Source: Promethearchaeota archaeon (GTDB taxonomy: Archaea > Asgardarchaeota > Lokiarchaeia > Sigyniarchaeales > SOKP01). From it: a DNA stretch of 64,000 bases. A program made the position numbers and the translations under genes. The stretch covers positions 1 through 64,000 of the forward strand of contig JAHLWP010000012.1 in assembly GCA_019057865.1 (NCBI GenBank), written 5' to 3'. The notes beneath the pieces are model-generated. The model had not been told where the DNA came from. It saw nothing but the letters and a program-made list of their open reading frames with translations, and did not search any database. This document shows, piece by piece, positions 40,945 to 45,881 of this stretch; position 1 is the stretch's first letter, and the number at the start of each line of letters is the position of its first letter.

Positions 40945-41101
40945 GGTTTAATTTATTGAGTGTTTAATTAATTAATTTATATTCAAATACAATACTCCTT
41001 TATCAAAAAATATATTCATTAGTATTATCCAGTGTAATAAATAACCTAATAAATACTAGCATATTTATCAAAATATAAAAACATAATTTATAGTGAAAAA
41101 C

Positions 41102-43039
41102 ATGAGTAAAGCTAAAGGAAAACCTTTACCAGATGATGTTAAAGGATATTCACAAGTTAGACTCGATGTCGATCTAACAACTGGGAAAATTGAAAAAACT
41201 GAATTATCAGGAGAATTCTGTCGCGATTGGATTGGTGGATATGGCTTCGGTGCTCGCATTTTGTGGGAAGAGCTGAAACCTGGCATAGATCCACTCGGTC
41301 CGGAGAATGTTTTTGTTTATGCTCAGGGACCATTCCCAACCACCATTCTGCCAACTAGCTCAAAGTATGGCGTTTTTGCCAAATCACCTTTAACGGGAAT
41401 GTTTGGAATGGCAATATCTTCGGGAAGTGTAGGAGCTCAAGCTCGTCGTGCTGGAATTAATGTAATTGTCTTTAAAGGAAAAGCTCCTGAACTCTCTTAC
41501 TTTGTTATTGACGATGATGATGATTATTTAGTTCCATGCGAAAAAACTTTAAAGGGAAAAGGAACCTTTGAAACTGAAGATCTTTTAAGAGAGGAATTTC
41601 AGGACCAACGATTAGCAGTAATGAGTATAGGACCTGCTGGTGAACGTATGAGTAGAATGGGATGTATTACTAATGATCGAAACAGACAAGCGGGAAGAAC
41701 AGGAATGGGCGCTGTTATGGGATCCAAAAACCTTAAAGCAGTTTGTTTTAGGGGCACTAAAGGTATAAAAGTTGCACATCCAGTTGAATTTTATAAAATA
41801 GCCAAGAAACTCATAAAGGTAGCTAATGGACCTGCGACTGCTAAATATCGAGATCTTGGAACACCTGCAGGACTTACAAGCTATAACAAACTTGGGATGA
41901 TGCCTACTTTTAACCATCGCGAAGGTACCTGGGATAAGATTACTAATGGTTCCTTCACTGGTGATACACTTAATGAGGATTGGGTTGTAAAGAAAGTTGC
42001 TTGCTCACAATGCTCCATTGCTTGCGATCATCTAGCAAGAGTCCCCAAAAATCATCCTGACTGGCCAAATCTTATCGCAAGTGTTGATATTGAACTTTTG
42101 TATGGATTTGGAACTGGATGTGGTAATGCTGATTGGCCAACTGTCTTCAAGTGTATTAGTTTGTGTGATGATTTAGGAATTGATGCTATTAGTGGAGGAG
42201 TAACTGCTGCTATGGCTTGCGATCTTTATACAGACGGCTTAATAACTAAAGAGGATTTAGGATTCGAACTTCCATTTGGTTCAACAACGAATTTAGTAAA
42301 ATTTACAGAAGAAATGATCCTTGGAAAAGGATTTGCAGGAGAAATTTTTGGTCATGGAACCAGAGTTGCCGGTGAAAAATTAGAAGAGAAGGGAAAGAAG
42401 GGAGCTAGTACGTATGCAATGCAAATTAAAGGGTTAGAGATGCCTGCATTTGATATCCACGGAATGTCGTCCTTCGCCGTTGGGGAGAGCGTATCCATTA
42501 GAGGCGCTTGTCATTTGCGTAATGGATCTTATGGACTCGATGCTAAAGGCACTTTTGATCGTTTCAGTTATGATAAACCTCTAGAACGTGGAAAAGCAAT
42601 TAAGGCAGTTGAGGATGTATATGGCATCATCGATTCTTTCATCATTTGTAAATTTACACGCGGAATTTATGAGAATGATGCCGAAATGGCAAAAGTTTAC
42701 GAGTTAGTAACTGGTCTTCCAATGGATGAAGAATTAATGCTTGAAAGGGGAGATGCAATTGTTACTCTTTCAAAGTGTTTTAACATCAGAGAAGGTTGGA
42801 CCAGAGCAGATGATCATCCCCCAGAAAGATTCTTTAAAATGGCTCACACAAAGGGTCCTGCTAAAGGAGTGACCCTAAAAGAAGATGGATTTCAACAATT
42901 GTTATCGGGTTATTATGAAGCAAGAGGTTGGGATAAAGAAACAGGTATTCCTACTGATGAAACCTTGAAAAAATTAGGAATGGAGTTCGTTATTGGTAAT
43001 TTAAAACCAGCACAAACAAAAAAAGGAGGTAAAAAATAA
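41102..43039 (+). CDS. aor: Tungsten-dependent aldehyde:ferredoxin oxidoreductase family protein
   Basis: KSPLTG, IGPAGE, AGRTGMGAVMGSKNLKA, CSQCSIAC, DDLGIDAIS and RGACH motifs. Stop overlaps the next ATG (TAATG). Confidence 0.92.
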   Translation: MSKAKGKPLPDDVKGYSQVRLDVDLTTGKIEKTELSGEFCRDWIGGYGFGARILWEELKPGIDPLGPENVFVYAQGPFPTTILPTSSKYGVFAKSPLTGMFGMAISSGSVGAQARRAGINVIVFKGKAPELSYFVIDDDDDYLVPCEKTLKGKGTFETEDLLREEFQDQRLAVMSIGPAGERMSRMGCITNDRNRQAGRTGMGAVMGSKNLKAVCFRGTKGIKVAHPVEFYKIAKKLIKVANGPATAKYRDLGTPAGLTSYNKLGMMPTFNHREGTWDKITNGSFTGDTLNEDWVVKKVACSQCSIACDHLARVPKNHPDWPNLIASVDIELLYGFGTGCGNADWPTVFKCISLCDDLGIDAISGGVTAAMACDLYTDGLITKEDLGFELPFGSTTNLVKFTEEMILGKGFAGEIFGHGTRVAGEKLEEKGKKGASTYAMQIKGLEMPAFDIHGMSSFAVGESVSIRGACHLRNGSYGLDAKGTFDRFSYDKPLERGKAIKAVEDVYGIIDSFIICKFTRGIYENDAEMAKVYELVTGLPMDEELMLERGDAIVTLSKCFNIREGWTRADDHPPERFFKMAHTKGPAKGVTLKEDGFQQLLSGYYEARGWDKETGIPTDETLKKLGMEFVIGNLKPAQTKKGGKK

Positions 43040-43658
43040 TGTCAAAAGCTGCAACTAAAAAAAGAGGAGGAAAGATGCATCAATTCATCATCGTGGATCC
43101 AAATTTATGTACGGGATGCGAAACTTGGACCAGGTCTCCTGGAAAGCACAAAACCTGTGAATCCGTATGTAGTTTTGTACATGATGGTGAATTCAATCCA
43201 ATAAATACAAGAATTCATAGAGTTCGAATTGAACCTGTTTTTAATATCGCTTTAGCGTGTCAGAAGTGTGAAGACTCACCCTGCGTGAGAGCGTGTCCTG
43301 AGAAAGCGCTAAGTCAAGACCCAGAAACGGGTTCAATTATGGTAGATGACGATAAATGTAATGGCTGCGCCTTCTGTATGAATTAAGAGAATTTCTCTCT
43401 AATATGCGGAAAAGGGCGTGCGATTTCGGAGTTCTGAGTCTACATATTGAATCTCAGAAAGCACTTATCTGTGATCTTTGTGAAAATATGAAGGAAGATT
43501 ATATTGATGAAGAATCCGGAATTAAGGAACCCCAATGCATATTGGTTTGTCCTAAAGAGGCGATTTCTCTTAAAAATGTGGAACAGATTGGAGAAGAAAC
43601 CCGTATTGAAGCCGTTAAAAGACTTTTTTCATCAATACTAGAAGAGTATGAAGGTTAA
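43039..43658 (+). CDS. 4x[4Fe-4S] electron-transfer subunit of AOR (DmsB/AorA-like); predicted spliced CDS join(43039..43122,43153..43379,43412..43658), 185 aa
   Basis: The ORF track splits it into 115 aa and 84 aa pieces. Removing the 30-nt and 32-nt inserts gives 558 nt in frame, with 16 Cys in four groups: CTGCETCESVC, CQKCEDSPCVRAC, CNGCAFCIRAC and CDLC...CILVC. Confidence 0.85.
43123..43152 (+). other. Candidate BHB-type mRNA intron 1 (30 nt)
   Basis: Central helix UGCG(43117-20)/CACA(43147-50) with one C-A mismatch. 3-nt bulges AAA(43121-23) and AAA(43151-53). Inner stem CUU/AAG plus a CCAGG-UCU-CCUGG hairpin. Outer exon-exon stem UACGGG/CCUGUG. Excision gives TGC GAA ACC TGT. Confidence 0.72.
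43380..43411 (+). other. Candidate BHB-type mRNA intron 2 (32 nt)
   Basis: Outer stem GCGCCUU/AGGGCGU (7 bp). Central 4-bp helix CUGU(43374-77)/GCGG(43406-09). Bulges AUG(43378-80) and AAA(43410-12). Inner hairpin AUUA-AGAGA-auu-UCUCU-c-UAAU. Cutting after the 2nd bulge nt gives TGT ATA AGG GCG TGC and removes the stop and frameshift. Confidence 0.8.
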
Positions 43659-43675
43659 ATAATATTTTTATATAT

Positions 43676-43710
43676 TTATTTCTTTTTTTTATTCTATCTT
43701 TTATTTTTTT
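43676..43710 (+). terminator. Oligo-T archaeal terminator candidate after the aor operon
   Basis: Several T5-T8 runs immediately downstream of the stop at 43658. Confidence 0.4.
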
Positions 43711-43904
43711 AATAAGTATTATCATTAAAGTTTTAAATTTTATGATTTATTTGTAGGATAGATAATTGAAATTACATAATAATTGGATTTTAATAATATA
43801 GACTATTTACAATATCATAAATATTTTTTTGATTAGCAATTCTTGATATAGGTAAGTAGAAAAGAAGAAACTTATGGAGGAAAGAATTAAACAAGGTGTA
43901 TAAC

Positions 43905-45881
43905 TTGTCTGAAAAACAGACCAAGGATAATAATGAACCAGAATTGCCAATTGTTGGCGTTTTCGTGTGTCGCTGAGGAATAAACATCGCTGGTATCTTA
44001 GATGTCCCTAGAATCGTGGAAGAACTTAATAGATTAGAAGGTGTAAAAGCTTTTGAATATCTTAGTATGTGTACTGAAGGAGGATCTTCTTATATAAAGG
44101 AACAACTTGAAGAAAGTAAAATTGAGAGAATTGTTGTAGCTGCTTGTACTCCTAGAACTCATCAACCAGTTTTTCACGCTATACTCGCTGAAGCTGGTTT
44201 ACCTCCTAGATATTTGGAATTTGTTAATATAAGAGAACATTGTAGCTTCGTTCATCAAGCTCCAGAAGTACGTGAAAAAGCAATTCAGAAGGCAATTGAA
44301 CTCACAAAAGCAGGAATAGCACGTGCTAGATTATTAGAAGATGTTCCAATAAAAGTAGTACCTGTTGAACCAGTGGCTCTAGTTGTAGGAGGAGGTATTG
44401 CTGGATTATCTGCTGCTGTTGATTTAGGGGATGCTGGATTTAAAGTTTACCTCGTTGAAAAGAATACTACAATTGGAGGTAGGATGAGCCAATTAGACCG
44501 AACATTCCCAACGGACGATTGTTCAATATGAATTCTCGGTCCTAAAATGTTAGAAGCAAATCGTCATCCAAACATTGAGATTCTATCATATAGTGAAGTC
44601 ATTGAAGTTGATGGATATATTGGAAATTTCAAGGTTAAAGTTAAAAGAAAGTCACGGTTCGTAGATGAAATTAAATGTACTGGTTGTGGAGCATGTCCAG
44701 AAGTATGCCCTATTTATGTACCTAATTATTTTGATGAAAATCTTTCGGCGAGAAAATGCATTGATATCGCTTTTGCTCAAGCTGTTCCTGCAATTTTTGA
44801 TATTGCAAGAGAATCTTGTGTAGAATGTTTTGCTTGTGTTGATTCATGTGAAGAAGATGCTATTGATTTTAGTATTCAAGATAAAGAAATTGAACTTAAA
44901 GTTGGTACTATAATTGTTGCTACAGGGTGGGATCTCTATCAAGGACCAGATTATGGATATGGTACTTTCGATAATGTTGTAAATCAAATCGAGTTGGAGA
45001 GGATTCTTGCGCCTAATGGTCCTACTTATGGACATTTAAAACGACCTTCTGATGGAAAACGTCCTACTAAAGTATTATTCATCAATTGTGTTGGATCGAG
45101 AGACATAAATAAAAATGCTCACTGCAGCGTTATTTGCTGTAATTTATCTCTTAAAAACTCAAAACTCATCAAATTAGAATATCCTGATTCTCAAATAGTT
45201 TGTTGTTATATAGATATGAGATGTGCAGGAAAAGATTATGAAGAGTACTATAGACGTTCACGAGAAGCAGGAATTATCTTTCTAAAAGGATTAGTTGGTA
45301 AAATTGAAGAAGATCCATTAACTAAAAATCTAAAAGTACAGTTTGAACCTGTTGGCACAGATACAATTGTCGAGATGGAGTTTCATATGGTTGTATTATC
45401 ACCAGCATCACTCCCATCTAAAGGTACTGTGGAGATAGCGAGAGTTTTAAATATGGAAAAAAGCCCAGATGGATTCCTAAAAGAATTTCATGCTCGACTT
45501 GATCCAATCAGTACAAAGGTTCCTGGAATATATATATGCGGTTCAGCTCAAGGACAAAAAGAGATTGATAAAGCAGTCAGCCAAGCAAAGGGTGCTGCTT
45601 CTACAGCAGGTATACCAATGGGCAAAAAAGAATACGTCATGGAGTTAATTCGGGCTACACCTTTAGATGAACGTTGTGCCAAATGTTACAAATGTATAGA
45701 GTCATGTCCATATAGTGCGATTTCAGTAAATGAGAAAGGAATTCTAGTAGTGAATATTATTCTATGCAGAGGATGTGGTACTTGTGAAGCCGTTTGTCCT
45801 TCTAAAGCAATTGAATTAACATACTTTAGAGATGATCAATATATGGCATTAATTGATGAATTACTTCCTATTGCGGATTAA
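43905..45881 (+). CDS. hdrA: Heterodisulfide reductase subunit A-like flavoprotein; selenoprotein with two Sec (UGA 43974-76, 44529-31), about 658 aa
   Basis: One frame from TTG 43905 (AAGGTG upstream): VGVFVCR-U-GINIAG ... FPTDDCSI-U-ILGPKM ... Joins ORFs 44016..44531 and 44547..45881. Both TGAs sit at positions that are Cys in HdrA. Confidence 0.9.

What the first reader, a model, noticed from the sequence alone, without database searches (positions are those of the whole stretch)
43367..43419. Intron 2: near-canonical BHB whose retention truncates the protein
Seen: GCGCCUU-CUGU-[AUG]-intron hairpin-GCGG-[AAA]-AGGGCGU. The insert is 32 nt (not a multiple of 3) and carries an in-frame TAA at 43384-86, so splicing is required for a full-length protein. 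The cut sites predicted from structure alone give exactly the length needed to restore the frame (CAFC-I-R-AC). The flanking codons are unusually G/C-ending for this AT-rich genome (TGC GCC TTC / AGG GCG TGC), as expected if exon-exon pairing is under selection. An ATG inside the intron (43404) is in frame with exon 3.
Basis: partly seen in the sequence, partly recalled or inferred. Interest (0 to 1): 0.9.

Follow-up and report, generated by a model that had tools for sequence, protein, structure and literature searches.

The report
tRNA-type mini-intron splits ferredoxin gene
A 32-base insert shaped like an archaeal tRNA intron breaks the iron-sulfur subunit gene next to an aldehyde oxidoreductase gene in an Asgard (Lokiarchaeota-type) archaeon, and comparison with over 100 related genes indicates that it is cut out of the mRNA, a kind of splicing that papers confirm for only one archaeal protein gene (cbf5).

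Summary
Window 43380-43411 is a 32-nt insert in a four-cluster Fe-S subunit gene (43039-43658) that follows aor. It carries an in-frame TAA. [quoted passage not shown]

About 100 orthologs in 154 genomes of the same order have no insert and read C-(I/V)-R-A-C at that point. A 32-nt insert at this codon occurs in three other genomes and five metagenome contigs. These inserts fall into two unrelated sequence types whose cuts lie 1 nt apart, and base changes between them keep the helices paired.

Two insert-bearing species differ at saturated synonymous sites (dS about 1), yet dN/dS is 0.04, and 0.065 downstream of the insert. One carrier has stops in both frames, which rules out frameshifting or a separately translated second half.

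The genome encodes a catalytic and a non-catalytic EndA paralog and RtcB. Independent DNA assemblies carry the insert.

No RNA data cover the gene, so splicing is inferred, not shown.

This scan has noted similar mini-introns before, in this genome and in many other Asgard genomes. I re-checked two of them here (cooS and a LeuRS-like gene).

The parts
41093..43039 (+). aor, tungsten-type aldehyde:ferredoxin oxidoreductase. It is intact (648 aa), and its stop overlaps the start of the Fe-S gene.
   Evidence: Pfam AFOR_N and AFOR_C, E 1e-63 and 1e-97; ORF listing.
43039..43122 (+). Exon 1 of the Fe-S subunit gene. It holds the first two Cys and the following Glu codon of cluster motif 1.
   Evidence: Alignment with insert-less orthologs.
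43123..43152 (+). Intron 1: 30 nt, in frame, relaxed BHB. The boundaries follow the bulge rule; the alignment alone allows a 3-nt shift.
   Evidence: Present only in G000, G094 and contigs L071 and L100. It differs from the G094 copy at 15 of 30 positions but keeps the hairpin. Removing it restores CxxCxxCxxxC.
43153..43379 (+). Exon 2. It ends two bases into the Ile codon of cluster motif 3.
43380..43411 (+). Intron 2, the finding itself: 32 nt, type A, with the TAA at 43384-86.
   Evidence: Exact gap against about 100 orthologs; BHB cut sites; present in independent DNA assemblies.
43367..43373 (+). 5' strand of the outer exon-exon helix. It pairs with 43413-43419.
   Evidence: 7 of 7 pairs; 89% of cells paired across four type-A sequences.
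43374..43377 (+). 5' strand of the central 4-bp helix (CUGU). It pairs with GCGG at 43406-43409.
   Evidence: 100% of cells paired in four sequences, with U-G/U-A exchanges at two pairs.
43378..43380 (+). 5' bulge AUG. The predicted cut is after 43379.
   Evidence: Rule of cutting between the 2nd and 3rd bulge base (PMC2738675), applied.
43381..43405 (+). Inner intron hairpin (25 nt).
43410..43412 (+). 3' bulge AAA. The predicted cut is after 43411.
43412..43658 (+). Exon 3. It holds the last Cys of cluster 3 and the remaining cluster ligands, up to the stop.

Best explanation
Window 43380-43411 is a 32-nt archaeal bulge-helix-bulge (BHB) intron inside the coding sequence of the Fe-S (polyferredoxin-type) subunit gene of a tungsten aldehyde oxidoreductase, in a Lokiarchaeota/Promethearchaeota-type Asgard archaeon. 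In the aor/Fe-S transcript, the last 13 bases of exon 2 pair with the intron's 3' end and with the first bases of exon 3. This makes a 4-bp helix flanked by two 3-nt bulges. The heterotetrameric (alpha-beta)2 tRNA-splicing endonuclease cuts after the second base of each bulge (after 43379 and after 43411). RtcB joins the exons, and the intron is released, probably as a small circle. The joined mRNA encodes a 185-aa protein with four complete Cys motifs. Unspliced mRNA gives a 115-aa stub that lacks the fourth ligand of cluster 3 and everything after it. Shown here: the insert and its exact boundaries, the conserved fold, selection on the gene, and the enzyme genes. Inferred: the cleavage and ligation themselves.
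For: (1) The insert fills an exact 32-nt gap against insert-less orthologs in about 100 of 154 genomes of the order. All of these read C-(I/V)-R-A-C at the point.
(2) BHB-rule cuts remove exactly 32 nt and restore that motif in the window, G016, G094 and G018.
(3) More carriers were found: contigs L071, L093/L094, L096, L098 and L100.
(4) Across four type-A sequences, 92% of cells pair, against 35-54% when partners are slid. The central helix is 100% paired, and three pairs change on both sides.
(5) Type B has an unrelated sequence but the same length and the same geometry, 1 nt downstream. Only that register gives Ile in G094.
(6) G094 and G018 both carry the insert. Between them dS is about 1.0, dN/dS is 0.043 for the whole gene and 0.065 downstream of the insert. 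The intron differs at only 3 of 32 positions.
(7) G016 has TAA in the upstream frame inside the insert and TAA in the downstream frame at the junction. Three of the four carrier genomes have no start codon for a second polypeptide.
(8) Each carrier genome has only this one copy of the gene.
(9) Six of seven flank codons end in G or C in all four carrier genomes, against a mean of 2.1 in 65 insert-less orthologs.
(10) The genome has two EndA paralogs. One has the catalytic Tyr/His/Lys and the other lacks the His. RtcB is also present. Asgard (alpha-beta)2 EndA carries the loop linked to broad substrate range (PMC5829648).
(11) DNA contigs from two other studies and a JGI contig span the insert without an indel.
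(12) The same genome has a 32-nt insert in cooS and a 28-nt insert in a LeuRS-like gene. In both, the same cut rule restores conserved motifs.
Against: There is no RNA-level evidence. In this genome the minimum-energy fold pairs the 5' bulge, and the strict BHB fold is 4.2 kcal/mol less stable. The inner helix beside the 5' bulge is mismatched in the window copy. Type B has one non-pairing position in its central helix. Archaeal transcription and translation are coupled, and it is unexplained how splicing outruns ribosomes.
Confidence: 0.85

Rival explanations
1. The insert is a disabling mutation and the gene is a decaying pseudogene.
For: Retaining the insert truncates the protein. One contig (L098) holds a shortened copy without aor.
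Against: dN/dS is 0.043 for the whole gene and 0.065 downstream of the insert, between two carriers separated by dS of about 1. All Cys ligands are intact after excision. The insert keeps its length and fold in several lineages. No second copy of the gene exists in carriers.
Confidence: 0.04
2. The ribosome deals with the insert itself, by programmed frameshifting or by hopping over it as in phage T4 gene 60 or yeast mitochondrial byp elements.
For: There is a stop soon after the 5' boundary and a hairpin in the gap. In the window, G094 and G018 the two frames overlap.
Against: In G016 both frames are closed within the insert, so a frameshift cannot join them. A frameshift would add about 10 residues between the third and fourth Cys of the cluster. 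No matching take-off and landing codons exist that would give the conserved CxxxC spacing in any carrier (reading). The geometry that is conserved is that of a BHB.
Confidence: 0.03
3. The gene is truly split. Two polypeptides, the second starting at ATG 43404, assemble into one Fe-S protein.
For: ATG 43404 is in frame with exon 3.
Against: The ATG is absent in G016, G094 and G018 and in contigs L096 and L098. G016 has a stop directly before exon 3. Cluster 3 would have to take three Cys from one chain and one from the other.
Confidence: 0.03
4. The insert is an assembly or sequencing artefact, or the footprint of a small mobile DNA element.
For: None beyond its small size.
Against: Contigs from runs of two other studies and a JGI contig carry it unchanged. 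No other copy of either intron type exists in this genome, or at other loci in the 54 genomes of the genus. It has no target-site duplication and no terminal repeats. No Rfam family matches.
Confidence: 0.01

Closest known systems
BHB intron in the cbf5 pre-mRNA of Crenarchaeota (Watanabe 2002; Yoshinari 2006; Yokobori 2009, PMC2738675)
   Same: A short BHB intron inside a coding sequence, often with a relaxed motif. Cuts fall between the 2nd and 3rd bulge base. The host has a hetero-oligomeric EndA. The intron is patchily present among relatives, implying gain and loss.
   Different: A different phylum (Asgard) and a different gene (a metabolic Fe-S subunit). The gene holds two introns, and both lie inside Cys cluster motifs. 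Two unrelated intron sequences occupy sites 1 nt apart. Splicing is not shown experimentally here.
BHB introns of Asgard tRNA genes (preprint 10.64898/2026.10.13.758758; Valentin-Alvarado 2024 as cited there)
   Same: The same motif, similar sizes, the same presumed enzymes, and repeated gains at sites where the exon can supply half of the motif.
   Different: The host RNA is an mRNA, so excision must also restore a reading frame and must compete with translation.
BHB intron in the 5' UTR of Haloferax volcanii HVO_1309 (PMC7714728)
   Same: An EndA substrate in an mRNA, supported there by circular RNA sequencing and in vitro cleavage.
   Different: That intron lies in the untranslated leader and does not interrupt a coding sequence.
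Unconventional XBP1/HAC1 mRNA splicing in eukaryotes
   Same: It works alike. A tiny intron of a length not divisible by three (26 nt in XBP1) is cut by a protein endonuclease at paired stem-loops, the ends are joined by RtcB in animals, and the reading frame changes.
   Different: The endonuclease is IRE1, not EndA/TSEN. The recognition motif differs. That splicing is a regulated stress response.

Membership tests
Archaeal BHB (EndA/RtcB-spliced) intron | [quoted passage not shown] | tested here: met
   Window: central helix CUGU/GCGG, bulges AUG and AAA, 7-bp outer helix, inner hairpin. G016 is fully canonical. 92% of cells pair in four type-A sequences. Caveat: the window's minimum-energy fold pairs the 5' bulge.
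Archaeal BHB (EndA/RtcB-spliced) intron | Cutting after the 2nd base of each bulge yields a functional joined RNA | tested here: met
   The cuts remove 32 nt and restore C-I-R-A-C, identical to insert-less orthologs, in all four genomes.
Archaeal BHB (EndA/RtcB-spliced) intron | The host encodes a splicing endonuclease able to cut relaxed motifs, and an RNA ligase | tested here: met
   Two EndA paralogs, one of which lacks the catalytic His, and RtcB. The broad substrate range is inferred from PMC5829648 and was not assayed.
Archaeal BHB (EndA/RtcB-spliced) intron | The spliced junction or the excised (circular) intron is seen in RNA | tested here: inconclusive
   The only RNA run found has no cover of 43010-43817. 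The spliced junction is absent from JGI contigs. No protein in the database matches the spliced product.
Archaeal BHB (EndA/RtcB-spliced) intron | Cleavage by purified EndA in vitro | not testable with these tools
   This needs a bench assay.
Programmed ribosomal frameshift | The two frames overlap, so that a shift can join them in all carriers | tested here: not met
   G016 has stops in both frames within the insert.
Translational bypass (T4 gene 60 / byp elements) | Matching take-off and landing codons flanking the gap | tested here: not met
   No matching codon pair gives the conserved spacing in any carrier (sequences).
Group I / group II self-splicing intron | A ribozyme core of hundreds of nucleotides | tested here: not met
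   The insert is 32 nt, and there is no Rfam match at E up to 1.
Miniature transposable element | Multiple copies, terminal repeats and a target-site duplication | tested here: not met
   It is single-copy in the genome and is found only at this locus across the genus.

The most novel reading that the evidence does not exclude
These mini-introns are gained and lost actively, and they settle at 'proto-splice sites' where the coding sequence is already self-complementary. This one codon has been occupied by two unrelated 32-nt introns whose cut sites lie 1 nt apart. Type A is scattered over at least four separate lineages whose nearest relatives lack it, always with the same G/C-ending flank codons. 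That pattern suggests spread by recombination together with the flanks (homing-like) or repeated precise loss. If so, the closest archaeal relatives of eukaryotes run a live intron gain and loss process in protein-coding genes, using the tRNA-splicing machinery.
Probability: 0.35. Interest if true: 0.85.

Novelty: new member of a known kind. Interest (0 to 1): 0.68.

Why it matters
In the papers I could search, endonuclease-type splicing of an archaeal coding sequence is confirmed only for cbf5 in Crenarchaeota (PMC2738675, PMC7714728). I found no paper describing it in Asgard archaea.

- **Annotation.** A frame-breaking BHB intron in an ordinary metabolic gene means that standard annotation miscalls such genes as fragments or hypothetical proteins. 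One allele is filed publicly as a 70-aa hypothetical protein.
- **Physiology.** mRNA maturation in these organisms would depend on EndA and RtcB.
- **Evolution.** The patchy distribution, the two intron types and the pre-formed exon helix make this locus a compact natural experiment on how such introns arrive and persist, in the lineage closest to eukaryotes.

Tried and rejected
- **RNA evidence.** One metatranscriptome run (X20) shared a few words with the 3-kb stretch. When laid on it, the run had no cover on the Fe-S gene, so it says nothing.
- **Spliced junction.** An exact search of JGI metagenome contigs for the type-A spliced junction found nothing.
- **Spliced product.** A protein-database search for a full-length product of this organism found at best a 94%-identical, insert-less relative.
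- **Genome-wide scan.** I scanned the genome for strict BHB motifs whose excision joins two long open frames. It gave 203 hits, against 219 for a decoy geometry, so it had no discriminating power. The real examples I checked by hand are often relaxed and would fail its filters.
- **Other intron copies.** Searches in the own genome and the genus found only chance or low-complexity matches.
- **Joint alignment of types A and B.** MAFFT aligned them by codon, not by structure, so covariation was counted within type A only.
- **Apparently truncated matches.** The matches in G102 and G106 stop at contig ends; they are not further introns.
- I redid that step with coordinates.

Full report
**What is there.**

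The window is AT-rich (26-35% G+C). At 41093-43039 it encodes an intact aldehyde:ferredoxin oxidoreductase (Pfam AFOR_N and AFOR_C). The stop of aor overlaps the start of a Fe-S gene at 43039. The ORF finder breaks that gene into a 115-aa piece ending at TAA 43384-86 and an 84-aa piece starting at ATG 43404 in another frame.

The intact ortholog of a sister species is a 185-aa protein with four Cys motifs. Its nearest solved relatives are the Fe-S subunits of Pyrococcus WOR5 and of Aromatoleum AOR. Sources name the homologs as Promethearchaeota or Lokiarchaeota proteins, so the host is an Asgard archaeon.

**Checking the observation.**

The insert is 43380-43411.

- The segment 43360-43425 folds at -23.6 kcal/mol, z = -3.55 against shuffles.
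- The minimum-energy fold pairs the 5' bulge. The strict BHB fold costs 4.2 kcal/mol more.
- The inner helix next to that bulge has mismatches in this genome.
- Shuffling the intron in its exon context gives an equally good central helix plus hairpin in 0.12% of trials.

**Comparison with relatives.**

I searched the whole order, 154 genomes, and 119 have the gene. In all but four genomes the gene is continuous and reads C-(I/V)-R-A-C exactly where the window has its insert.

The four carriers are G000 (the window's genome), G016, G094 and G018. All have 32 nt at this codon. A gapped pattern search and a search for short C-terminal gene products then found more carriers in metagenomes:

- L071 is a strain of the window's species with both introns identical.
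- L093 and L094 are type-B carriers.
- L096 and L098 are type-A carriers.
- L100 is a G094-like strain.

The inserts fall into two sequence types.

- **Type A** (G000, G016, L096, L098). The central helix is CUGU paired with GCGG, GCAG or ACAG. The inner stem is AU-rich.
- **Type B** (G094, G018, L093). The sequence is unrelated to type A. The outer helix has 8 bp, and the central helix has three pairs and one mismatch. Its bulges lie 1 nt further downstream, so the cut falls after the Ile/Val codon rather than inside it. Only this register gives Ile in G094.

On the four type-A sequences, 92% of cells pair, against 35-54% when partners are slid by 1-3 columns. The central helix is fully paired, and three pairs change on both sides.

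**Is the gene alive?**

G094 and G018 both carry type B. They differ at dS of about 1.0, yet dN/dS is 0.043 overall and 0.065 for the part downstream of the insert. Over the same divergence the intron differs at 3 of 32 positions, far fewer than the 56% seen at synonymous sites. After excision, all four carriers give 185-aa proteins with every Cys ligand. No carrier genome has a second copy of the gene.

**Rivals.**

- **Split gene.** The ATG at 43404 exists only in the window's species.
- **Frameshift.** G016 has TAA in the upstream frame inside the insert, and another TAA in the downstream frame right at the junction. Neither a second start nor a frameshift can make the protein there.
- **Bypass.** No matching take-off and landing codons would give the conserved spacing.
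- **Artefact.** DNA contigs from two other studies and a JGI contig span the insert without an indel.
- **Mobile element.** Neither intron type occurs elsewhere in this genome, or at other loci in the genus.
- **Known RNA family.** No Rfam family matches.

**Machinery and genomic setting.**

The genome has two EndA paralogs that are 29% identical. One has the Tyr/His/Lys catalytic residues and the other has Ala in place of the His. This is the (alpha-beta)2 arrangement reported for Asgard archaea, together with the loop linked to broad specificity (PMC5829648). RtcB is present.

ARAGORN finds only 18 tRNA genes in this 99.7%-complete genome, 12 of them with introns. That fits the heavy interruption of Asgard tRNA genes described in preprint 10.64898/2026.10.13.758758.

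Earlier notes of this scan list many similar inserts in this genome and in at least 119 others. I treated them as leads and re-checked two.

- In cooS, a 32-nt insert on contig C41 at 42255-42286 restores P-E-Y|M-E-Q-K under the same cut rule.
- A LeuRS-like gene on contig C49 lies in four frames. Removing its first 28-nt insert restores P-A-E|N-A-A, with a 4-bp central helix.

**Flanks and history.**

Six of the seven codons around the insert end in G or C in all four carrier genomes. The mean in 65 insert-less orthologs is 2.1, and only two reach six; both are from another family.

In insert-less genes the would-be exon-exon helix already has 5.3 of 7 pairs on average, against 2.8 at an average position in the gene. 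The site is therefore a natural proto-splice site.

On the gene tree:

- G000 groups with the insert-less G012 and G087.
- G016 is 99% identical in protein to the insert-less G014.
- L096 and L098 are nearest to other insert-less genomes.

Presence of the intron needs at least three changes on the tree of 64 orthologs from the order's genomes, and more once the metagenome contigs are counted. The data cannot yet tell repeated gain from spread by recombination together with the flanks, or from many precise losses.

**Limits.**

No RNA data cover the gene. Splicing is a strong inference, not an observation. My own genome-wide motif scan was uninformative.

**Verdict.**

This is a real feature. 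It is very probably an EndA/RtcB-spliced mRNA intron (confidence 0.85). It is a new member of the kind so far documented in print only for cbf5.

Noticed in passing
window 43123-43152: A second insert in the same gene: 30 nt, in frame, between the 2nd and 3rd Cys of cluster motif 1. It is shared only with G094 and contigs L071 and L100. It differs from the G094 copy at 15 of 30 positions but keeps a hairpin and a 4-bp central helix. The proximal exon helix is weak (relaxed BHB).
   Followed up: partly
window 43974-43976 and 44529-44531: The downstream HdrA-like gene reads V-C-R-TGA-G-I-N-I-A-G, with an in-frame TGA where relatives have Cys, and its frame is broken again by a stop at 44529-31. 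First-stage notes read both as selenocysteine codons. I did not test this.
   Followed up: no
own genome, contig C41 42255-42286: A 32-nt frame-breaking insert in cooS (CO dehydrogenase). It has a 6-bp exon helix and a central helix with one mismatch. The BHB-rule cuts restore the conserved motif.
   Followed up: yes
own genome, contig C49 4996-7941: A class I aminoacyl-tRNA synthetase gene (LeuRS-like) lies in four successive frames. The first break is a 28-nt insert with a 4-bp central helix (GCAG/CUGU). I did not analyse the other breaks.
   Followed up: partly
L098 740-1113 (JGI Ga0073583_1148411; also filed at NCBI as hypothetical protein LCGC14_1870810): A shortened copy of the gene without aor upstream. 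It lacks about 24 codons between cluster motifs 2 and 3 but still carries a type-A intron with an intact central helix. It may be a decaying copy or a smaller ferredoxin.
   Followed up: partly
G004:C103 3021-3245; L095 829-1122; L099 907-1128: Isolated 3' fragments of this gene (the last 74-98 codons) lie away from any aor gene in several genomes and contigs.
   Followed up: no
window 43623-43634: Compared with the strain contigs (runs X3 and X4, and L071), the window has a paired 1-nt deletion and insertion that recodes a few residues near the C-terminus. This could be strain variation or a local assembly error.
   Followed up: no
own genome, whole: ARAGORN calls only 18 tRNA genes (12 with an intron) in a genome that is 99.7% complete. 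Most tRNA genes are probably too interrupted to be recognised.
   Followed up: no
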